Virus record (IMG/VR): IMGVR_UViG_3300010151_007551
Coordinates: 23,860 to 87,859 of that record
Reading direction: 5' to 3' (one strand)
DNA: 64,000 nucleotides
From: a virus
Positions 23,231 through 30,652 of the stretch are shown piece after piece (positions within the stretch are counted from its first letter, which is position 1; every line of letters begins with the position of its first letter). The notes below the pieces were generated by a model that was given only the letters and a program-made list of their open reading frames with translations, was not told the origin of the DNA and ran no database searches. Made by a program: the position numbers and the translations under genes.

Positions 23231-24268
23231 ATGAATGACTTTTTTGATTTACCTAAAGAGACTTTTGGAAGCAGTAGTTCTAATTCCAATGAAAAGAAAA
23301 AAGATGAAAACATCTATGACCCAAATCCTGATGCAAGCGGAGGAATATATAAATCCGTTGTTAGGTTTATCCCCAATTTAAAAGATAAAACACAAACTAA
23401 ATACACTAAATATAGTGCTAAGGTATATAACCCTCTAACAAAGAGAGCTGTATATGTAGACTGTCCATCCAATGAAAATAAACCATCGGTATTGTGGACT
23501 TTATCTACTATTCTCGGCCGTCTTAAAAAAGAAGAACCTACCGTTGTCAATGAAATAAATGATAATTTTTCTAGGTGGTATACTCATCATTCTTACGTGT
23601 ATATTATAAAAGATCCTCAAAATCCTGATTTAGAAGGAAAAATTAAACTATTTAAATATCGCGCTCAGATTAATGATCTCATAGAGCAACAGATGAATCC
23701 AGACGAAGATGGTCTATTAGAAAACACGGTTAAAGTTAATCCCTTTCATTTATTAGAAGGAAAAGATTTCTTATGTGTTGTTTCAAAGAAAACAAAAACG
23801 TGGAGAGATTGGACAAAATGTAAATTTATGGATGAACTAACTCCATTTGTTTTTAATATAAAAGACAATCAAGTAGTTATGAAAAATGATGAAGGAGCTA
23901 TTAAAGTAGTAAAGGGATTCTTTGAAAAAACTGCTCCGTCCATGGAAGACTATTTACATCAGTCTTGGACAGATGAAACATACAATGAAGTTGCATCAGC
24001 GCTAAAAGCAGCGATTGGTCATAAAGAGGTTATAAACATGCTTATAGCTGAAACTAGAGATGAAAAAATGAAACAATTATTGTCTCTTGAAAATCCACAT
24101 AAAGAGTCTGTTGCACCGGCTTCTGTTTCATCAAATGACACATTAACCAATGATAATATTTCTTTTGGTGGAACCACTGTTAATACCGCTGTTGAAGAAA
24201 AAAAGACACCGGTTGTCACTGATGGAGAGTCTAATGATGAATATGATGATCTATTCAAAGATCTTTAA
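23231..24268 (+). CDS. T4 gp32-like single-stranded DNA-binding protein
   Basis: VVRFIP, YIIKDPQNPDLEGKIKLFKY, NPFHLLEGKDF and an acidic tail (DEYDDLFKDL). Confidence 0.85.
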   Translation: MNDFFDLPKETFGSSSSNSNEKKKDENIYDPNPDASGGIYKSVVRFIPNLKDKTQTKYTKYSAKVYNPLTKRAVYVDCPSNENKPSVLWTLSTILGRLKKEEPTVVNEINDNFSRWYTHHSYVYIIKDPQNPDLEGKIKLFKYRAQINDLIEQQMNPDEDGLLENTVKVNPFHLLEGKDFLCVVSKKTKTWRDWTKCKFMDELTPFVFNIKDNQVVMKNDEGAIKVVKGFFEKTAPSMEDYLHQSWTDETYNEVASALKAAIGHKEVINMLIAETRDEKMKQLLSLENPHKESVAPASVSSNDTLTNDNISFGGTTVNTAVEEKKTPVVTDGESNDEYDDLFKDL

Positions 24269-24301
24269 TATATAAAATTAAATAAAAAAAACAAATTAAC
24301 A

Positions 24302-24655
24302 ATGACTAAAGTTACAAATGAAACTGTAGAAAACACTAAAACAGATGCTTCTACTACTAATGCTACTGCTTCGGCTGAAAATACAACTGATCCAAATCAA
24401 GTTGTTCTTCTAGGAAGTATTTCATATACTGATGAATTTCAATATGAAGAATGGTTAAAAAACATGGATTTAAACCAGGCTATTTTTGTATTAGTTGCTA
24501 ATGCAAACTATGCACAATCAAAAGGATTATTATCTATTGCTGAATCTGAATTAGTTGCAGGTGCTCTTAGAACAATTAAGAAAAATTCTAAGCAGACTCC
24601 AGTTGCCCCCGTTGTAGATTCTAAAAATGTTACTGAAGATAAATCATCTAAATAG
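24302..24655 (+). CDS. Hypothetical protein
   Basis: 117-aa ORF in the gp32 operon. Confidence 0.7.
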   Translation: MTKVTNETVENTKTDASTTNATASAENTTDPNQVVLLGSISYTDEFQYEEWLKNMDLNQAIFVLVANANYAQSKGLLSIAESELVAGALRTIKKNSKQTPVAPVVDSKNVTEDKSSK

Positions 24656-24664
24656 TTTTTACCA

Positions 24665-25804
24665 ATGGTTTATTTAATAGATGGAAATGCATATATAAAC
24701 GTAGCAGTAAGCGTTACTAAAAGTATTTTATCTAGAGATAAATCTATAGGAAGAGATTATTATATAGATGATATTTTTTCAGAAAATAAGAAGATCTTAA
24801 GGGAACAATGTAGGATAACATTTAGAGATTTTTGCTTATCTTACTTAGTATCATTAATTGCACCCATCCACAAAGAAGTGGATGAGGTGCATATTGTTTT
24901 TGATTCTAAAAGTTGGAGAAAGAAATATATTTCTGATTTTTTTACTACTGAAAATGTGTTATTGGATAGACCTTCTGATATTAAAGAATTTGAATATAAA
25001 GCTAATCGACGAGGAGACTCCAATATCTATTTATTTTTTGAATATTTTCAAGGCATTGTTCTAGACCATTTAAAAAATGAATGTGGAATTAATTTTCACA
25101 GGTGGTCCGGAATGGAGGGAGATGATATATTGGCGTATTTATGTGATACTTTTACTAAAGATACTATAATATATTCAGTTGATAAAGATTTAATACAGCT
25201 TGTTAATAATTCAGGATTAACATATACAATTATGGTATCACCTAAGCAGATGTCTAAGCATAAAAAATTATATGTTTCAGATTATTCAAGTGAATTAAAT
25301 GAATCAGATTTTTTTAACATAGATAACGTTACAGTTGGAAATCTAAATAATGTTTCTTCCAAGTTAATAGAAAAGGGATATGTTAAGTATCCAATAAATT
25401 CTACTCGTTCTGTGCTAGAAAAAATAATAGGTGGAGATAAGTCAGATAAAATACCAAGGTTATATAAAATGACTAAGTCTAAAGTTAATAAAGTTTGCGA
25501 ATTAATCATTGAAAAATATGGTAACGATATTTTACATAAACTAGATGAATTAAATGCAGAGTTTATAGATTATGCTATTTGTAAAATATCTAAGTGTAAT
25601 AAATTAGAAGAGAAAAAAGATATTGATACGCTTAGAAAGCATTTTATATTTAATACTAAAATAATTAGACTATCTCATACCTTATTGCCATTAGAGTTAA
25701 AAAATGAAATTGAAACTCGGCTAAACCTATTACAGAAAACAAAGTATAATAACTTTAAATATTCTAAGCTATTAGAACTCAAAAATAAATCAGTACTACT
25801 ATGA
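24665..25804 (+). CDS. T4 RNase H-like 5'-3' exonuclease/flap nuclease
   Basis: LIDGN, VFDSKSWRK, YKANR, EGDDIL, SVDKDLIQL and GDKSDKIP motifs. Confidence 0.85.
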   Translation: MVYLIDGNAYINVAVSVTKSILSRDKSIGRDYYIDDIFSENKKILREQCRITFRDFCLSYLVSLIAPIHKEVDEVHIVFDSKSWRKKYISDFFTTENVLLDRPSDIKEFEYKANRRGDSNIYLFFEYFQGIVLDHLKNECGINFHRWSGMEGDDILAYLCDTFTKDTIIYSVDKDLIQLVNNSGLTYTIMVSPKQMSKHKKLYVSDYSSELNESDFFNIDNVTVGNLNNVSSKLIEKGYVKYPINSTRSVLEKIIGGDKSDKIPRLYKMTKSKVNKVCELIIEKYGNDILHKLDELNAEFIDYAICKISKCNKLEEKKDIDTLRKHFIFNTKIIRLSHTLLPLELKNEIETRLNLLQKTKYNNFKYSKLLELKNKSVLL

Positions 25805-26100
25805 AACCTTTATATGAAAGAATTTTAATTAAACCTGTTCAAAAAGAAACATCTACTAAATCGGGTATTTTATTACCAACTAAAGCGGTTAAGCGTCCAA
25901 ATATTGGAACCGTAATAGCATGTGGAGAAGGAACACAACATAATCCTATGAAAGTTAAGGAAGGAGATGTAGTATTATGTAATAGATATGCAGGCGTAGA
26001 TATAGTTTATAAAAATGAACCTCATTACGTTATATTATCTAATGAAGTAATAGCCGTCTTGGAAAACATAGATGAGGTAAAACTCGACGAATATGAATAA
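25801..26100 (+). CDS. groES: Co-chaperonin GroES
   Basis: MKPLYERILIKP...TKSGILLP...GTVIACGEG...VKEGDVV. Confidence 0.95.
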   Translation: MKPLYERILIKPVQKETSTKSGILLPTKAVKRPNIGTVIACGEGTQHNPMKVKEGDVVLCNRYAGVDIVYKNEPHYVILSNEVIAVLENIDEVKLDEYE

Positions 26101-27112
26101 TGACTTAAAGTTCGACTTTAATGATATTTTAATATGTCCATCGGTTATAACTAATATAGAATCAAGATCTCACATTAATGTATTTTATCCTGATGGAAAC
26201 CTTCCACTTATAACTGCTCCAATGGATACCGTTATATTAGAGAAAAATGAACATGTATTTATTGAAAATAATATAATACCTTGTTTACCCAGGGGAGAAA
26301 AAGCTGGGCCTCGCTCTATAGAGTCATTTTCACTAAATGAAATGCTTAATAAATTTAAATCAAAGGAATTAAAAAAGCACAGGGGATATCTAATAGACAC
26401 AGCTAATGGTCATATAAAAAAACTAAAAGATGTCACTAGGATGATTAAGAATGAACTAGGTGATGATATATGGTTAATGATAGGAAATATAGCTAATCCA
26501 AAATCATACGCTGAATTATCTGAAGCCGGTGCAGATGCAATTAGAATAGGAATAGGCAACGGCGGAGGTTGTCTAACTACACAGCAGACTGGTGTAGGAT
26601 ATCCAATGGCTTCCTTAATAAAAGAATGTTATATTGAATCATTATCTTTAAATAATCCCGCTAAAATAGTAGCAGACGGTGGAATGAAAGATTATTCAGA
26701 TGTTATTAAAGCGCTCGCATTAGGAGCAGATTTCGTTATGATGGGTTCAATATTTAATAAAGCAATAGAAAGTTCTGGAAAAAATGTACATTATAGTAAT
26801 GCTGGTGAAACAGAACTTAGTTTAGAAGAAGCATTAGATTTGTTTAATTCTGGGAGACCTGTTTTCAAATCATTTAGAGGAATGTCTACCAAAGAGGTTC
26901 AAAGGAAATGGGGAAGGATTAATCTTAAAACATCTGAAGGAATAGTGGATACCAGAGAAGCCCAATACACTTTAAGCAGCTGGGTTGAAAACTTTAAGCA
27001 TTATCTAAGATCAGCCATGAGCTATACTAATTCTAGTGATTTAAATGAATTCATTGGGGAGACACACACTATAATGATCACTAAAAATTCATTAGATAGA
27101 TTTAAAAAATAA
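26093..27112 (+). CDS. IMP dehydrogenase/GMP reductase family protein (no CBS domains)
   Basis: TAPMDTV, IDTANGH, GIGNGGGCLT, IVADGG, FRGMS, SEG and LRSAMSY motifs. Confidence 0.88.
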   Translation: MNNDLKFDFNDILICPSVITNIESRSHINVFYPDGNLPLITAPMDTVILEKNEHVFIENNIIPCLPRGEKAGPRSIESFSLNEMLNKFKSKELKKHRGYLIDTANGHIKKLKDVTRMIKNELGDDIWLMIGNIANPKSYAELSEAGADAIRIGIGNGGGCLTTQQTGVGYPMASLIKECYIESLSLNNPAKIVADGGMKDYSDVIKALALGADFVMMGSIFNKAIESSGKNVHYSNAGETELSLEEALDLFNSGRPVFKSFRGMSTKEVQRKWGRINLKTSEGIVDTREAQYTLSSWVENFKHYLRSAMSYTNSSDLNEFIGETHTIMITKNSLDRFKK

Positions 27113-27123
27113 TTTTTTTATTT

Positions 27124-27192
27124 AAACCTTTTTATAAAGTTTAGTATAATATATAAATCAATAACAAAATAGTTATTAACGTTCTTTAAAAT
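27124..27192 (+). promoter_or_regulatory. Promoter plus boxB-like hairpin and boxA-like antitermination element
   Basis: AAACC-N14-AGTATAATA (27124-27151), hairpin AATAAC/GTTATT (27160-27177) and CGTTCTTTAAAAT (27180-27192), which resembles rrn boxA. Confidence 0.6.
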
Positions 27193-27195
27193 AAT

Positions 27196-27618
27196 GTGAA
27201 AGGCATCGGAAATCGACGGATTGAAGATGTTGATATGTGCCAGAACAATGAGTCCAGTGGAGCTCATATTGGATGGAATTAGATCGTCGGATCGCAGAAG
27301 CCCGTGATAGGGTGTTCCTAATCAAATGATTAGGCTGAACTACTTTAACAAGTGGAATTTCAGTTCTTAGTTTAGATTTATAGAAAATGTAGATCTGCAC
27401 AACGCTTGTGGGTAAATAAATAAATCCCGCTTTATGACTGAATAAGCTTTTTCGCGAGCTAAGGTGGTCTTGAATTCTATAGTGGATTTATCAATGATTA
27501 TGGTGAGTACAAACCATTTTTAAGATAAGCAACGTCGGTTATTTCAAGATGCAGTGTTTAAAATCGCAGCGGAGACTAAGTTGGAGGTATTCTATAATCC
27601 TTCCATATTTTCTTTCAC
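27196..27618 (+). ncRNA. Large structured non-coding RNA candidate (~420 nt), class not recognised
   Basis: Terminal pairing GTGAAAG/CTTTCAC, nested long-range helices and about ten local hairpins with many G-U pairs. GC content is visibly above the flanks and there is no credible ORF. Confidence 0.78.
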
Positions 27619-27650
27619 TTTTTATTTTTATAATACATACACTAATTACA

Positions 27651-27683
27651 AAAAAAAGGGAAGCTTTATAGTTTCCCTTTTTT
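27651..27683. terminator. Bidirectional Rho-independent terminator
   Basis: AAAAAAAGGGAAGCT-TTAT-AGTTTCCCTTTTTT between the convergent ncRNA candidate and sheath gene. Confidence 0.85.
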
Positions 27684-27712
27684 ATTTTATATTAAAATTA
27701 AGTTTTCTGTTA

Positions 27713-30652
27713 TTAGAAACTTGGAGTAAATCCTGAAGATTCAGAACTTAATTCTCCACCAACTCTTGTTATTGTTAATCTGTTAATAAACTTATGAATT
27801 CCTCTTGGGAAATCAACCGCTATGTCAACTATAGCTGTATTAGCTTCAATAACTTCAGCTGTATTGTTTGTACTATCAATAGTTACTTCATAAGATTGTA
27901 CACCTCTTGCGTTTTGAACTGCATCCATGTAATTTTCTAAAATGGTTTTAACTCTTAACCTTGTGATTTCATCATTGAAATCAAATAAGAAGTTTACTAA
28001 TATTTGTTCAATATCTCTTTCAATAGTTGAAAGATTATCTCTAACATGAGCATTATTTAATGCAGAAGTTACTCTCTGATATGCTGTATTGTTTGTGAAA
28101 ACAGTTATTCCAAAGCCTCTTCGTTTAACTATTAAGTTATGTCCAACTGGTTCTAAATAATCTCTATCTTCTTTTGTTAAATCATATTCCAATCCAACAA
28201 TTTCAGGATCGCTTAAAATAGCTCTTTTTCCAGCTGTTATTAAGAAAGGAGTTCCATTTTTAAATTTTCTAACAAATGCATTTGAAACATAACCAGCTGG
28301 TGGAACTGCTTTATTTTTACCACCTTCTCTAATTAAAACATATGGCATCGCAAAATATGCATATGATGCCAATGGTACTCCATTATAGTCTCCACTTGGA
28401 AATTTAAATAAGAAACTAGGATTTAAACTAACGTCTCCTCCTTCTGAAATATATTGTGTAGATACGAGTTTATTAACAGTATCAATAAAACTAGGATCTA
28501 CTGATTTTTCAAATTGCTCAAATGAAGGGTCATTAATAATTGCCATTACTTTTCCATTCATTGCTGCTAATTTTACTAAATAATATTTAGACGATGAAGA
28601 AATGCATCCTGCATATGAATCAACGATATATCTATAATCAATTGTTTCTCTATCTGAAAGAGTTTGAGGAATCTTAGTATAGTCATATAAATATGATAAA
28701 ATATCCTCTTGTCTTCCACATGTATTATTTGGCAACAATTCTGATCTAAGTTTAAATCCTCTTAGGAATTGTCCTTTAAGTGCTTCAACATAATTGTATA
28801 CTCCTTTATAAACAGATATTTCATTTCCACTAACCTCTAGACCATCTACTGCTTCTGCAGAAGGTGCCATCGTAGTTACAGTATATTCTAGTCTATATGG
28901 GCTTAATTCTTCACTTGACGTTATCGAAATAATTTTCAATAATCTAGTTCTAGAATCTCCATCTAATCTCGCTTTAATATAATGATTAACTTTTATGAAT
29001 TCATCTATTTCAGCTTTTTCTGCAACATTAGCGGTATTAATACCTAATACTAATTTATTAGGTTGAGTTATTGTGAAATCTGTAAAATAATTAGTATCAG
29101 CTAAATCAAATACTTTTTTGAAATTACTACCGTTTTGTAATTCATATTTAATATAGTCATCTCCATCAATGTAATAGTTTACACTTATTTGATTTAATAA
29201 ACTATTATCTTGATATGTGTATATTTTAATGTATGAATATTCTTTTCCATCATCAAGTATGGCTTTAAATCCATCTTCTATTTTAGAATAGTATGTATTT
29301 ACTCCATCCACTGATGTATCATTAGTTTTTAAGAAACCTCCAACATATGCTTCATATACTTTACTTCCTTCCATAGCTATCATGTATTCGACAGCAGCTG
29401 TTACTCTAACAAAGTCATCTGCTTCAACTAGTGTGAAATCTCCTGCTGCTTTAGCGATATCTATTTTATTAACTAGATTATCATCGCCTGGTCTACTATA
29501 GCTTACTACGCTAATTAGTGGAGTAGGGTCTGCGTCTGATCCATCTGGGTTTTTTCCACCTGTATCTATGGTATATACGTCATCTGTATTTAATGCATCA
29601 TATCCATAGCCTACTATGTCAACTCTGTGTGTTGACATTTCAATATCATTAAATGTATCGTCTTCTAAGTCTATTAAATCTAGTTTATCTCTATCTAATG
29701 CACAAAGAATACCTGTGCTAGCAAATAATCTATTTACTAACGTATCAATTGATGAATTTGTTCCAGATTGATCTTTAAAATCAGGTATTAGTGATCCAGT
29801 TACTCTTGCAATTGCTTTTACCTCTGGTAAAGCAATGAAGTTTGATATTTCAGAATCCATTAGTCCTGCTTCATCAAAAAATTGACCAAACGTTGGATCT
29901 TTTGCTAATTTTAAATTATTTGACCAGTCTCCCTCTACCATAATCACCTCTACAAAGTAATCAGATATAAAATCATCTGGTGATACGAAATTTGGAAAAT
30001 CTATGTCTTCTCCAAAGCTAGCATACCATTCTCTAGCTGTTACGTCAAATCCTGATATACCTGCTCTCTTAACCCAAAGTGTCATATTGCTACTTCCCGT
30101 GTTAACAAAGCTTAATATTTTATTGGATGCAATTGATGCGTTACCAAATGCTCCAGGGTTTAGGATAAAATCATCTCCTAACGCTAAATTTTTAGATCTA
30201 TTTAGACTGTCTTCATCTGCATACCATAGTTTATTTCTATTAAAGAACTCTATCATTGGATATTGATATGGTGCGCTGTTTGAATTATTAGATGAGCTTT
30301 CACAGTTAAATGTTGTAAACGATGCTTGATCTTTATTCGCAACTGTGTCTGTGTCATTATCTAACGGCCAAACATTCAGTGCAAAAACGGGACCTTCTCT
30401 TAATGCAACTTCGATAGTTCTATGAAAATAACTTCCTTGTTTTTCTAATTGCGAATCTCTGTCTCCGTAAACTGCTTTTAATGTTCTTAAGTCATTTATT
30501 AAAACCACAGTATTGAATGGACCTTGTCTACTTGATCCAATTATTAATCTTCCGGTGGTTAAAGGCAAGGCGGTGCCTTGACTTTGGTCTATCTCAACAG
30601 TATATACCCCGCTGGATTTAAAATTGTTTAAGTTTAATACTTTTTCGGCCAT
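27713..30652 (-). CDS. Tail sheath protein (gp18-like)
   Basis: N-terminal SGVYTVEIDQS...GSSRQGPFN; C-terminal VPPAGYVS, RDYLEPVGHN, FLFDFNDEITR and NNTAEVI. Confidence 0.92.
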   Translation of the reverse strand: MAEKVLNLNNFKSSGVYTVEIDQSQGTALPLTTGRLIIGSSRQGPFNTVVLINDLRTLKAVYGDRDSQLEKQGSYFHRTIEVALREGPVFALNVWPLDNDTDTVANKDQASFTTFNCESSSNNSNSAPYQYPMIEFFNRNKLWYADEDSLNRSKNLALGDDFILNPGAFGNASIASNKILSFVNTGSSNMTLWVKRAGISGFDVTAREWYASFGEDIDFPNFVSPDDFISDYFVEVIMVEGDWSNNLKLAKDPTFGQFFDEAGLMDSEISNFIALPEVKAIARVTGSLIPDFKDQSGTNSSIDTLVNRLFASTGILCALDRDKLDLIDLEDDTFNDIEMSTHRVDIVGYGYDALNTDDVYTIDTGGKNPDGSDADPTPLISVVSYSRPGDDNLVNKIDIAKAAGDFTLVEADDFVRVTAAVEYMIAMEGSKVYEAYVGGFLKTNDTSVDGVNTYYSKIEDGFKAILDDGKEYSYIKIYTYQDNSLLNQISVNYYIDGDDYIKYELQNGSNFKKVFDLADTNYFTDFTITQPNKLVLGINTANVAEKAEIDEFIKVNHYIKARLDGDSRTRLLKIISITSSEELSPYRLEYTVTTMAPSAEAVDGLEVSGNEISVYKGVYNYVEALKGQFLRGFKLRSELLPNNTCGRQEDILSYLYDYTKIPQTLSDRETIDYRYIVDSYAGCISSSSKYYLVKLAAMNGKVMAIINDPSFEQFEKSVDPSFIDTVNKLVSTQYISEGGDVSLNPSFLFKFPSGDYNGVPLASYAYFAMPYVLIREGGKNKAVPPAGYVSNAFVRKFKNGTPFLITAGKRAILSDPEIVGLEYDLTKEDRDYLEPVGHNLIVKRRGFGITVFTNNTAYQRVTSALNNAHVRDNLSTIERDIEQILVNFLFDFNDEITRLRVKTILENYMDAVQNARGVQSYEVTIDSTNNTAEVIEANTAIVDIAVDFPRGIHKFINRLTITRVGGELSSESSGFTPSF

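What the first reader, a model, noticed from the sequence alone, without database searches (positions are those of the whole stretch)
27124..27683. Stand-alone ~420-nt, heavily base-paired, possibly pseudoknotted phage ncRNA of unrecognised class
Seen: the 600-bp gap between the GuaB/C gene and the sheath gene looks like a complete transcription unit, with a promoter motif, an RNA body and a terminator. Long-range helices read by eye: GTGAAAG 27196-202 / CTTTCAC 27612-618; GCATC, GAAAT, CGACG 27203-218 / CGTCG, ATTTC, GATGC 27533-552; GTTGATA 27229-235 / TATCAAT 27489-495; ATGGAATT-AGATCGTC 27273-288 / GGTGGTCT-TG-AATTCTAT 27463-480. Local hairpins include ATGAG/CTCAT, CCC/GGG, CCTAATC/GATTAGG, TACTT-TAAC-AAGTG, GAAT-TTCA-GTTC, TAGATTTATA-GAAAA-TGTAGATCTG, GTGGG/CCCGC, AGCTT/GAGCT, ATGGT/ACCAT and TGGAGG/CCTTCCA. 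CTTAGTT 27366-372 could pair with GACTAAG 27574-580 across the second helix, forming a pseudoknot. The many G-U pairs favour a + strand RNA over DNA palindromes. Established: large ornate phage-associated RNAs such as GOLLD and ROOL exist. Inference: this lacks tmRNA, RNase P, 6S, SRP and intron hallmarks, so it may be a new large ncRNA class or a divergent member of a known one.
Basis: partly seen in the sequence, partly recalled or inferred. Interest (0 to 1): 0.9.

Follow-up and report, generated by a model that had tools for sequence, protein, structure and literature searches.

The report
Double manA-type RNA of marine phage
The gene-free gap holds a real, expressed, roughly 420-base folded RNA gene of an uncultured marine giant phage, built from two linked copies of the known "manA" phage RNA fold, which a 2026 preprint reports to build RNA-only cages, so it is an unusual variant of a known RNA, not a new class.

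Summary
The observation largely holds. Window 27196-27618 (+) is a conserved non-coding RNA with a promoter-like site, a conserved leader and a terminator. Five distinct relatives (62-64% identical) support a 123-pair model: 97% of cells paired, and 46 pairs changed on both sides against 11.5 in shuffles.

Four marine metatranscriptome runs from four studies each hold one contig confined to 27200-27615, with no flanking gene.

It is not an unrecognised class. Rfam manA (RF01745) matches twice in tandem, at 34.9 and 31.4 bits. Both are below the 55.2 cut-off, with E about 1e-7 to 1e-8. The relatives match too.

Its CTTAGTT/GACTAAG pairing survives, but as a nested helix. Together with AACGCT/AGTGTT it joins the two units by swapped strands of the manA "P8" stem.

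Canonical manA sits in 5' UTRs. This RNA stands alone, next to a convergent gene or tRNA genes.

Function is unknown. My best guess is a stable architectural, self-associating RNA.

This scan has noted double or strand-swapped manA RNAs before on other DNA.

The parts
27121..27150 (+). Promoter-like site (TTTAAA, 18-nt spacer, TATAAT).
   Evidence: 10 of 12 matches. The scan found no more such sites in the region than in shuffles, so the scan alone is weak. The -10 TATAAT and the block around it are conserved in the relatives (alignments; L049 has TATTAT).
27178..27189 (+). Conserved leader motif AACGTTCTTTAA. It is boxA-like by my recall of the E. coli rrn boxA. It lies outside the RNA seen in the metatranscriptome contigs.
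Evidence: AACGTTCTTT is invariant in L008, L005 and L049. No contig covers it.
27196..27618 (+). Body of the RNA (423 nt), from the first base to the last base of the terminal helix.
   Evidence: Alignment A1. Model with 123 pairs, 97.0% of cells paired, 46 pairs changed on both sides. RNA contigs span 27200-27615 in total.
27196..27202 (+). Terminal helix H0, 5' strand (GUGAAAG). It pairs with 27612-27618.
   Evidence: 42 of 42 cells paired, invariant, no covariation.
27612..27618 (+). Terminal helix H0, 3' strand (CUUUCAC).
27203..27230 (+). 5' hairpin (manA P1 position): 27203-27207 pairs with 27226-27230, and the tip 27212-27214 pairs with 27219-27221.
   Evidence: Helices 2 and 3: 3 pairs changed on both sides, 97-100% of cells paired.
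27233..27237 (+). Closing stem of the outer manA-like unit (AUAUG). It pairs with CAUAU at 27604-27608, at the position of manA's GGGAG/CUCCC stem.
   Evidence: 30 of 30 cells paired, but invariant.
27604..27608 (+). Closing stem, 3' strand (CAUAU), directly after hairpin 27583-27603.
27224..27440 (+). manA-like unit 1 (Rfam RF01745 match over model positions 1-192).
   Evidence: 34.9 bits against a gathering score of 55.2. E 2.7e-7 and E 8.1e-9.
27408..27613 (+). manA-like unit 2 (Rfam RF01745 match over model positions 1-192). It has the exact motifs UGACUGAAUAA and UAAGGUG.
   Evidence: 31.4 bits, E 9e-8 and E 1.1e-6.
27275..27361 (+). Unit 1 multi-branch stem (27275-27280 pairs with 27356-27361). 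It encloses hairpins 27282-27293, 27295-27337 (itself forked) and 27340-27355.
   Evidence: Helices 7-12. The enclosing stem has 3 of 6 pairs changed on both sides and 100% of cells paired.
27366..27371 (+). Strand 'a' (CUUAGU) of the swapped P8-like stem. It pairs with 27575-27580 in unit 2.
   Evidence: 35 of 36 cells paired, 2 pairs changed on both sides.
27575..27580 (+). Strand 'd' (ACUAAG), the partner of 27366-27371.
27374..27396 (+). Hairpin at the L8 position of unit 1 (9 bp in the window).
   Evidence: Present in the MFE fold and in the model. The relatives have a 5-bp hairpin of different sequence there.
27401..27406 (+). Strand 'b' (AACGCU) of the swapped stem. It pairs with 27553-27558 in unit 2.
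   Evidence: 36 of 36 cells paired and 3 of 6 pairs changed on both sides, one of them a change private to L005.
27553..27558 (+). Strand 'c' (AGUGUU), the partner of 27401-27406.
27408..27430 (+). GGUA...AAUCC-type hairpin (manA P9 position) of unit 1.
   Evidence: Helix 16: 2 pairs changed on both sides, 100% of cells paired.
27467..27550 (+). Unit 2 multi-branch stem. It encloses hairpins 27474-27487, 27488-27528 and 27531-27540.
   Evidence: Helices 18-21: 3, 3, 8 and 4 pairs changed on both sides.
27505..27512 (+). Invariant 8-nt loop GAGUACAA, which contains the self-complementary GUAC, on a stem that covaries at 8 pairs.
   Evidence: Invariant columns; helix 20. The role of the loop is my inference.
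27583..27603 (+). GGUA...AAUCC-type hairpin (manA P9 position) of unit 2.
   Evidence: Helix 22.
27378..27385 (+). UUAUAGAA in the unit 1 L8 hairpin. It is complementary to UUCUAUAA at 27590-27597 in the loop of the unit 2 P9-type hairpin.
   Evidence: 8-nt Watson-Crick run, shuffle p = 0.012. The relatives have a different 7-nt run between the same two elements, p = 0.02-0.07.
27652..27683 (+). Intrinsic-terminator-like hairpin followed by a T run.
   Evidence: L058 has an equivalent of different sequence, and so do L005 and L049 by eye. None was found in L008.

Best explanation
Window 27196-27618 (+) is the gene for a stable, stand-alone RNA of about 423 nt in an uncultured marine giant myovirus. 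It is probably trimmed at both ends after transcription.

The RNA is a divergent double version of the manA RNA fold (Rfam RF01745). Two manA-like units follow each other on one chain. Each unit has:
- the J1 junction (UGNCNGAANAA);
- a small hairpin;
- the J2 junction (UAAGGUG-like);
- a stem that carries three branches;
- a GGUA...AAUCC hairpin.

The two units do not fold independently. In place of manA's local 'P8' hairpin, the 5' strand of unit 1 pairs with the 3' strand of unit 2 (27366-71 with 27575-80). The 3' strand of unit 1 pairs with the 5' strand of unit 2 (27401-06 with 27553-58). Unit 2 therefore sits inside the P8 stem of unit 1. A closing stem (27233-37 with 27604-08) and a terminal helix (27196-202 with 27612-18) wrap the whole RNA.

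What is shown: conservation, covariation, similarity to manA, and RNA-only contigs.

What is inferred: how it works. Canonical manA RNAs sit in 5' UTRs and were proposed to be riboswitches. This RNA has no constant downstream gene. My working mechanism is that it acts as an architectural RNA, a natural single-chain 'dimer' of manA domains. It is held together by the swapped stem and by an L8-L9-type loop contact, and it may associate further with copies of itself, as a 2026 preprint reports for manA RNAs in vitro.

The confidence of 0.8 is for identity and architecture. For the self-association mechanism I put about 0.3. The biological purpose is unknown.
For: Conservation and structure:
- Five distinct homologues (L008, L005, L049, L058, L060) were found through flanking proteins and DNA patterns. 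They are 62-64% identical to the window and 88-95% identical to each other.
- The final model has 123 pairs with 97.0% of 735 cells paired. 46 pairs changed on both sides, against 11.5 +/- 2.8 in shuffles (0 of 500 as high) and 4-7 when the partners are slid.
- The swapped and closing helices alone give 99% paired and 5 of 17 pairs changed on both sides (0 of 500). RNAalifold's local alternatives for the same bases give 93.3% and 1 of 25 (83 of 500).

Likeness to manA:
- RF01745 matches twice in the window, at 34.9 and 31.4 bits.
- In the relatives it scores 47.3 and 25.9 bits in tandem in two records, and 34.5 bits in two more. That is 4 of 38 records searched. It rings in 0 of 14 control genomes.
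- Unit 2 has manA's UGACUGAAUAA and UAAGGUG exactly.
- L8-L9 complementarity is present in 67 of 68 canonical manA RNAs parsed. Here it is present between unit 1 L8 and unit 2 L9, with different sequences in the two lineages.

Expression:
- 14 of the 24 listed runs that hold part of the stretch are RNA libraries.
- The 4 runs laid, from 4 studies, each give one contig of 348-425 nt lying within 27200-27615 at 95% identity or more, three of them at 99% or more. There is no cover of the leader, the terminator or either flanking gene.
- Three of the six variant positions keep a model pair: 27381 and 27409 (U-G to C-G) and 27513 (U-A to U-G). 27382 and 27388 open the top pair of hairpin 27374-27396, and 27439 lies in the unpaired J1 junction (read).

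Stand-alone nature:
- The downstream neighbour differs between lineages. It is a convergent sheath gene in the window and L005. It is a terminator followed by tRNA-Ala, Glu and Gln in L058 and L060. It is an RNase T-like ORF in L008.
- By contrast, 57 of 66 evaluable canonical manA loci have a same-strand ORF starting within 150 nt.

Self-assembly of manA RNAs: preprint 10.64898/2026.07.01.735769 (passages; section 8).
Against: - Both Rfam scores are below the curated cut-off (55.2 bits), so by Rfam's rule this is not a member.
- There are only two deep lineages. Nearly all both-side changes come from the single split between the window and the other five sequences, so the shuffle control overstates significance.
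- In an unbiased scan for 5-bp helices with at least 2 both-side changes, 8 of 24 passing windows (5 helices) lie outside my model. A single helix such as a/d or b/c could therefore be a false positive.
- RNAalifold did not predict b/c or the closing stem.
- The model's nearest-neighbour energy in the window is -83.6 kcal/mol, against -112.8 for the unconstrained MFE. The fold z-score is modest at -2.3.
- The closing stem and the terminal helix never vary, so they carry no covariation evidence.
- The reciprocal loop contact (unit 2 L8 with unit 1 L9) exists in the relatives (6 nt, p about 0.05) but not in the window.
- I found no equivalent of manA's GGUGGUG/ACCA loop pair.
- Contigs cannot show strand, exact ends or level, and RNA libraries can hold DNA (the tool's own caveats).
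- Nothing here tests oligomerisation or function. The cryo-EM work is an in-vitro preprint, and I could not see its figures or supplements.
Confidence: 0.8

Rival explanations
1. A trans-acting decoy or regulator. The RNA is a stable phage RNA that binds a host or phage protein or RNA, for example as a sponge for an RNA-binding protein or a defence factor. On this reading the manA-like fold is only a scaffold and self-assembly plays no part.
For: - It has its own promoter-like site and terminator and no fixed downstream gene.
- RNA-only contigs occur in four studies.
- Invariant single-stranded elements, such as the GAGUACAA loop and the J1 and J2 junctions, sit on covarying stems. They could be binding sites.
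Against: - No partner has been identified.
- No complementarity to any target was tested.
- The only experimental datum for the fold family is RNA-RNA self-assembly (preprint).
Confidence: 0.3
2. A tandem riboswitch or cis-regulator. The two manA-like domains are ligand-binding aptamers, in the manner of the tandem glycine riboswitch. They would control the terminator at 27652-27683 and so control read-through into downstream genes.
For: - manA was proposed as a riboswitch candidate in 5' UTRs (Weinberg 2010, PMC2864571, passages).
- A terminator follows the RNA in the window and in L058.
- In L008 an RNase T-like ORF starts 104 nt downstream on the same strand.
- In L058 and L060 tRNA genes follow on the same strand.
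Against: - In the window and in L005 the next gene is the convergent sheath gene, so there is nothing to regulate.
- The downstream neighbour is not conserved, while the RNA, its promoter block and its leader are.
- About 30 nt separate the terminal helix from the terminator, and I saw no conserved alternative pairing between them.
- The RNA contigs stop at the terminal helix and do not include the terminator.
Confidence: 0.1
3. A new RNA class unrelated to manA. On this view the sub-threshold Rfam matches reflect convergent or chance resemblance.
For: - There is no Rfam match at gathering score in the whole window.
- Scores are 20-24 bits below the cut-off.
- The P8 hairpin with its conserved loops, the L5-L7 pair and the 5' UTR position of manA are all missing.
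Against: - Two adjacent full-length matches have E of 1e-7 to 1e-8 here. The relatives reach E 6e-13, and none of 14 control genomes matches.
- Element order is the same, the J1 and J2 motifs are identical in unit 2, both units carry GGUA...AAUCC hairpins, and L8-L9-type complementarity is present.
Confidence: 0.05

Closest known systems
manA RNA motif (Rfam RF01745; Weinberg et al. 2010, PMC2864571)
   Same: - The order of elements is the same: junction J1, hairpin, junction J2, a stem carrying three hairpins, and a GGUA...AAUCC hairpin.
- Unit 2 has UGACUGAAUAA and UAAGGUG exactly.
- There are full-length covariance-model matches with E of 1e-7 to 1e-13.
- L8-L9-type loop complementarity is present.
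- It is phage-borne and marine.
   Different: - There are two units on one chain. In 64 canonical loci with full flanks, a simple motif search found a second J1-like motif within 300 nt in only 2, at offsets that do not fit a tandem.
- The P8 strands are swapped between the units instead of forming a local hairpin.
- The conserved P8 loops and the GGUGGUG/ACCA loop pair are absent.
- An extra terminal helix and a larger P1 are present.
- Scores are below Rfam's cut-off.
- It is a stand-alone gene and not a 5' UTR element.
- The carrier is a giant phage whose sheath is closest to those of huge uncultured phages and of Flavobacterium, Prevotella (Lak) and Tenacibaculum phages, at 28-36% identity. 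It is not a T4-like cyanophage. The host is inferred only.
manA homo-oligomers and the 60-mer cage (bioRxiv 10.64898/2026.07.01.735769, 2026; I read passages and section 8, but saw no figures or supplements)
   Same: The fold family is the same. In that work the subunits are joined by L5-L7' and L8-L9' kissing loops. Here an L8-L9-type complementarity links the two covalently joined units.
   Different: Those are separate RNAs of under 200 nt that assemble in vitro. Here the two domains are one chain, additionally locked by a swapped stem. No assembly data exist for this RNA. My mapping of that paper's L numbers onto the Rfam helices is an inference.
GOLLD, ROOL and OLE, large ornate RNAs that form RNA-only multimers (Nature 2025, PMC12286853; search listing and abstract only)
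   Same: They are large, ornate, often phage-associated stand-alone RNAs of unknown function. Their homo-oligomerisation was found by cryo-EM.
   Different: There is no sequence or covariance-model likeness: no Rfam match to those families at E up to 10 in the gap. This RNA is also smaller.
Tandem glycine riboswitch (PMC13018625; search listing and abstract only)
   Same: Two homologous domains on one chain that contact each other.
   Different: The glycine aptamers dock by tertiary contacts and control an expression platform. Here the strands of a helix are exchanged, and no regulated gene is evident.

Membership tests
manA RNA (RF01745) | Covariance-model score at or above Rfam's gathering score (55.2 bits). 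| tested here: not met
   The window scores 34.9 and 31.4 bits. The best relative scores 47.3 bits. The whole window has no match at gathering score.
manA RNA (RF01745) | A statistically significant full-length match to the model (homology, as distinct from curated membership). | tested here: met
   E 8.1e-9 and 9.0e-8 per genome, both over model positions 1-192. The relatives reach E 6.4e-13. 0 of 14 control genomes match.
manA RNA (RF01745) | The J1 junction GUGaCUGAAUAA and the J2 junction UAAgGug flanking a small hairpin. | tested here: met
   In unit 2, UGACUGAAUAA and UAAGGUG are exact. In unit 1, UGCCAGAACAA and UAUUGGAUG match in part. The hairpins between them covary, or in unit 2 are kept (helices 6 and 17).
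manA RNA (RF01745) | A stem enclosing three hairpins (the P5-P7 positions). | tested here: met
   Both units have it, with 3 both-side changes in each enclosing stem (helices 7 and 18). In unit 1 the middle branch is itself forked.
manA RNA (RF01745) | A local P8 hairpin (7-bp outer stem, inner stem, conserved ACUGUAG loop and AUGCC bulge). | tested here: not met
   The model alignment marks the outer-stem positions as non-pairs in both units. The strands pair across units instead. Canonical sequences show the local hairpin.
manA RNA (RF01745) | A P9 hairpin with a GGUA...AAUCC loop frame. | tested here: met
   27408-27430 and 27583-27603, both covarying (helices 16 and 22; alignments).
manA RNA (RF01745) | Complementarity between loops L8 and L9. 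| tested here: met
   In canonical manA it is present in 67 of 68 RNAs parsed, with covarying variants. Here it links unit 1 L8 with unit 2 L9: 8 nt in the window and 7 nt in the relatives. The reciprocal pair is seen only in the relatives.
manA RNA (RF01745) | Complementarity between loops L5 and L7 (GGUGGUG with ACCA). | tested here: not met
   By eye, the loops here are GUCG or GAUG, UAAC or UAGC, UAUAGU, and GUCG or GACA. I found no conserved complement.
manA RNA (RF01745) | A closing stem (GGGAG/CUCCC) directly 3' of P9. | tested here: inconclusive
   AUAUG/CAUAU lies at the right place, with 30 of 30 cells paired, but it never varies.
manA RNA (RF01745) | Position in the 5' UTR of a protein-coding gene. 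| tested here: not met
   The window and L005 have a convergent sheath gene. L058 and L060 have a terminator followed by tRNAs. Only L008 has a same-strand ORF, 104 nt downstream. In canonical manA, 57 of 66 loci have an ORF within 150 nt.
manA RNA (RF01745) | Formation of pentamer-based homo-oligomers (preprint, in vitro). | not testable with these tools
   This needs SEC, native gels or cryo-EM of the transcript.
GOLLD / ROOL / OLE | A match to the family covariance model. | tested here: not met
   No such family appears among the 21 matches at E up to 10 in 27050-27760.

The most novel reading that the evidence does not exclude
The RNA is a natural single-chain, strand-swapped dimer of the cage-forming manA fold. 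Marine giant phages would make it in large amounts as a free, processed RNA. In infected cells it would assemble, through its conserved exposed loops, into closed RNA-only oligomers or cages with half the chain count of manA assemblies.

That would show that manA-type RNAs are architectural RNAs in vivo and not riboswitches, and that their inter-subunit contacts (L8-L9', and strand exchange at P8) are under natural selection.
Probability: 0.25. Interest if true: 0.85.

Novelty: new variant of a known kind. Interest (0 to 1): 0.62.

Why it matters
manA has been an orphan 'riboswitch candidate' since 2010. In 2026 it was reported, in vitro, to build RNA-only cages. Why phages carry it is unknown.

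This RNA gives three handles on that question:
- It has no gene to regulate, yet it accumulates in marine metatranscriptomes. That argues the fold has a job of its own as a free RNA.
- The two domains are joined by swapped helix strands and by an L8-L9-type loop contact. This suggests that domain-to-domain contacts of the kind seen between manA subunits are selected in nature.
- It widens the fold's range from T4-like cyanophages to a clade of uncultured marine giant phages.

It also offers a ready-made, defined 'dimer' construct for structural work.

Tried and rejected
- **blastn against 50,697 phage records.** Searching the 600-bp gap gave no match.
- **Chance pattern hits.** 7 of the 12 metagenome pattern hits (L055, L056, L059, L061, L062, L065, L066) and all 8 genome contigs pattern hits (L185-L192) showed no similarity beyond the pattern. 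They had no blastn match to the RNA apart from a trivial 39-nt one in L190, and no manA match. I dropped them as chance.
- **L054.** It matches the manA-type motif pattern but has no Rfam match at E up to 0.001. I kept it out of all counts.
- **L080 and L081.** These pattern hits do not look like manA. I dropped them.
- **Other records with a guaB-like or sheath homologue.** 34 of 38 such records have no manA-like match at E up to 0.01.
- **Cultured or complete giant phages.** Five were searched: Flavobacterium MaF61, Tenacibaculum pT24 and PTm1, Sphingomonas PAU, and uncultured LR756500. The best result was a 13.4-bit match at E 0.037. No cultured model system was found.
- **A looser 'double manA' pattern on IMG/VR.** It returned only the same 5 contigs.
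- **tRNA or tmRNA.** None was found in the window.
- **A coding reading.** Rejected: every frame has at least 3 stops in every sequence, and the window's 100-codon open stretch on the - strand shrinks to 49 codons or fewer in the relatives.
- **Circularisation.** No joints appear in the four contig sets, but contigs are a poor test.
- **Parts without RNA-contig cover.** The leader, the terminator and the flanking genes have no cover. I read this only as a weak hint of processing.
- **A covariance model of the whole RNA.** Not built, because the alignment has 449 columns and the limit is 400.
- The script stopped on a coordinate error. One search counted the closing stem one column out of register (25% paired), which I corrected. 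One search used some wrong hairpin coordinates, which I corrected.
- **Supplements.** The supplementary files of Weinberg 2010 and of the cryo-EM preprint were not available to me. They may hold tandem manA examples, or the helix numbering that I inferred.
Full report
**What is there.** The window is part of an 87.9-kb IMG/VR virus record estimated at about 32% complete. The 600-bp gap 27113-27712 lies between an IMPDH/GMP-reductase-family ORF and the 3' end of a convergent 979-aa tail-sheath ORF. The gap carries a promoter-like site (27121-27150) and a terminator-like hairpin (27652-27683) on the + strand. The + strand folds somewhat better than shuffles (z = -2.30; 2 of 100 shuffles as good). 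The - strand does not (z = -1.22). Rfam at gathering thresholds finds nothing in the whole window.

**Relatives.** I searched with the two flanking proteins, with four DNA patterns in IMG/VR and with one in JGI metagenomes. These gave five distinct homologues of the stretch from GTGAAAGG to TCTTTCAC, each 419-423 nt: L008, L005, L049, L058 and L060. Several duplicates came from the same or near-identical contigs. They are 62-64% identical to the window and 88-95% identical to each other, so there are in effect two deep lineages. Seven metagenome pattern hits and eight genome pattern hits were chance. A blastn search of 50,697 phage records found nothing. No reading frame is conserved.

**Structure.**
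- RNAalifold on the six-sequence alignment A1 gave 128 pairs, 39 of them with compensatory change.
- I revised that structure by hand, guided by the manA model (see below), and counted the result. It has 123 pairs in 22 helices, and 97.0% of 735 cells are paired.
- 46 pairs changed on both sides, against 11.5 +/- 2.8 in column shuffles (0 of 500 as high). With the 3' partners slid by 1-3 columns the count is 4-7.
- 63 cells are G-U. On the - strand only 88.4% of cells would pair.
- Caveat: almost all both-side changes come from one split, the window against the other five. The shuffle control does not respect relatedness.
- In an unbiased scan for 5-bp helices, 8 of 24 passing windows lie outside the model.
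- The structure as a whole is well supported. Single helices are less secure.

- The terminal helix is kept in all six sequences but never varies.
- GCATC/GATGC (20 of 30 cells), GAAAT/ATTTC (15 of 30), CGACG/CGTCG (20 of 30) and ATGGAATT/AATTCTAT (32 of 48) are not kept in the relatives. The same bases form local hairpins that covary (helices 2, 3, 7, 18-21).
- GTTGATA/TATCAAT is mostly kept (37 of 42), but with no both-side change. It competes with a strongly covarying local hairpin.
- CTTAGTT/GACTAAG is kept and covaries at two pairs. Without the helix it was thought to cross, it is nested and not a pseudoknot.
- Nine of the ten listed local hairpins are in the model.

**Identity.**
- With E-value thresholds the Rfam manA model (RF01745) matches 27224-27440 (34.9 bits) and 27408-27613 (31.4 bits). 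Both matches are full length and on the + strand, with per-genome E of 8e-9 and 9e-8.
- The relatives match too: 47.3 plus 25.9 bits in tandem in two records, and 34.5 bits in two others. That is 4 of 38 records searched. None of 14 control genomes matches.
- All scores are below the curated 55.2 bits.
- Unit 2 carries manA's UGACUGAAUAA and UAAGGUG exactly. Both units have the three-branch stem and the GGUA...AAUCC hairpin.
- I fetched canonical manA RNAs with a motif pattern: at least 119 IMG/VR loci, of which 79 were held. They are single units. Of the 64 with full flanks, 2 show a second J1-like motif within 300 nt, at offsets that do not fit a tandem.
- These canonical RNAs have a local P8 hairpin. 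57 of 66 evaluable loci have a same-strand ORF starting within 150 nt. This agrees with the 5' UTR position described by Weinberg et al. 2010 (PMC2864571, passages).

**The join between the units.**
- In both units the model's P8 outer-stem positions do not pair locally.
- Instead 27366-71 pairs with 27575-80 (35 of 36 cells, 2 both-side changes).
- 27401-06 pairs with 27553-58 (36 of 36 cells, 3 both-side changes, one of them private to L005).
- Together with the invariant closing stem, these helices score 99% paired with 5 of 17 both-side changes (0 of 500 shuffles as high). RNAalifold's local alternatives for the same bases give 93.3% and 1 of 25 (83 of 500).
- In topology, unit 2 sits inside the P8 stem of unit 1. 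Equivalently, the two units have exchanged P8 strands.
- The L8-L9 loop complementarity is present in 67 of 68 canonical manA RNAs parsed, with covarying variants. It recurs here between unit 1 L8 and unit 2 L9: 8 nt in the window (p = 0.012) and a different 7 nt in the relatives (p = 0.02-0.07). The reciprocal contact is seen only in the relatives.
- Against the model: its nearest-neighbour energy in the window (-83.6 kcal/mol) is well above the unconstrained MFE (-112.8).

**Expression.**
- Of the 24 listed public runs that hold part of 26600-28200, 14 are RNA libraries. Each of these holds about a fifth of the sampled words or fewer, which is roughly the size of the RNA.
- I laid four runs from four studies. 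Each gives exactly one contig of 348-425 nt: 27200-27596, 27215-27585 (with adapter letters beyond), 27268-27615 and 27207-27586.
- Three of the four contigs lie entirely on the RNA. None runs into the leader, the terminator or either gene.
- DNA-derived contigs would be expected to continue into the flanks. I therefore read this as a discrete, comparatively abundant RNA whose ends lie near the terminal helix.
- Contigs cannot give strand, exact ends or level. The processing claim is a weak hint.
- Of the six variant positions, three keep a model pair (27381 and 27409, U-G to C-G; 27513, U-A to U-G). 27382 and 27388 open the top pair of hairpin 27374-27396, and 27439 lies in the unpaired J1 junction.

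**Context.**
- The promoter block and the leader motif AACGTTCTTT are conserved. What follows differs: the convergent sheath gene (window, L005), a terminator followed by tRNA-Ala, Glu and Gln (L058, L060), or an RNase T-like ORF (L008).
- The RNA is therefore a module of its own, often placed among stable-RNA genes.
- The carrier is not a T4-like cyanophage by its sheath. The nearest relatives are huge uncultured phages and Flavobacterium, Prevotella (Lak) and Tenacibaculum phages at 28-36% identity. The host is not known.
- Five such complete phage genomes have no significant manA-like match.

**How it may work.**
- A 2026 preprint (10.64898/2026.07.01.735769; passages, section 8; figures and supplements not seen) reports that manA RNAs form pentamer-based octamers, decamers and a 60-mer cage. 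The subunits are joined by L5-L7' and L8-L9' kissing loops.
- The present RNA looks like two such domains fused and locked by strand exchange and by an L8-L9-type contact. An invariant GUAC-containing loop sits on a strongly covarying stem.
- I therefore favour an architectural, self-associating free RNA (about 0.3) over a decoy for another molecule (about 0.3, not mutually exclusive in its first steps) and over a tandem riboswitch (about 0.1).
- None of these was tested here, and the biological purpose is unknown.

**In print?** My searches used 'manA RNA'/'wcaG', 'manA motif'+phage+riboswitch, 'RF01745', manA+cyanophage+structured RNA+metatranscriptome, and manA+cryo-EM+RNA-only+kissing. They found no description of a tandem or fused manA RNA. 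Earlier notes of this same scan report double and strand-swapped manA-like RNAs on other DNA. I reached the swapped-stem reading, before seeing those notes. They are AI notes and not independent evidence.

**Verdict.** This is a real, expressed, structured phage RNA. It is a new variant (double, strand-swapped, stand-alone) of the known manA kind, and not a new class.

Noticed in passing
window 27178-27189: The leader motif AACGTTCTTTAA just upstream of the RNA has its first ten bases invariant in the relatives I aligned. It is absent from the RNA contigs.
   Followed up: partly
L058:1255-1868 and L060:261-419: In two relatives the RNA is followed on the same strand, after a terminator-like hairpin, by tRNA-Ala(TGC), tRNA-Glu(TTC) and, in L058, tRNA-Gln(TTG). 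L049 shows the start of the same tRNA-Ala at the edge of the locus. The window itself has no tRNA gene.
   Followed up: partly
L054:2090-2330: A 4.7-kb viral contig carries the motifs UGACUGAAUAA and UAAGGUG and a UAUAGUGG-type loop like unit 2 of this RNA. It gets no Rfam manA match at E up to 0.001. It may be another uncatalogued manA-like lineage.
   Followed up: partly
window 27285-27289, 27533-27537 and 27214-27218: In the window only, the tip of the 5' hairpin (CGACG) is complementary to two CGUCG loops, one in each unit. The relatives do not keep this. It may be a lineage-specific tertiary contact or chance.
   Followed up: partly
window 23231-27112: The genes upstream of the RNA are a gp32-like ssDNA-binding protein, a 5'-3' exonuclease (RNase H-like), a Cpn10/GroES homologue and the GMP-reductase-like gene. 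A chaperone gene and a nucleotide-metabolism gene are also the kinds of neighbours reported for canonical manA, but here they lie upstream of the RNA.
   Followed up: no
L008:5048-5620 and L008:6423-7250: In the L008 lineage the RNA is flanked by a ClpP-like protease gene, a 73-aa ORF of no known family, and an RNase T-family exonuclease gene.
   Followed up: partly
L186:5747-5792: A chance pattern hit in a Fuerstiella MAG lies near an Acido-Lenti-1 RNA (RF01687, 48.4 bits, above its cut-off). It is unrelated to this finding.
   Followed up: no
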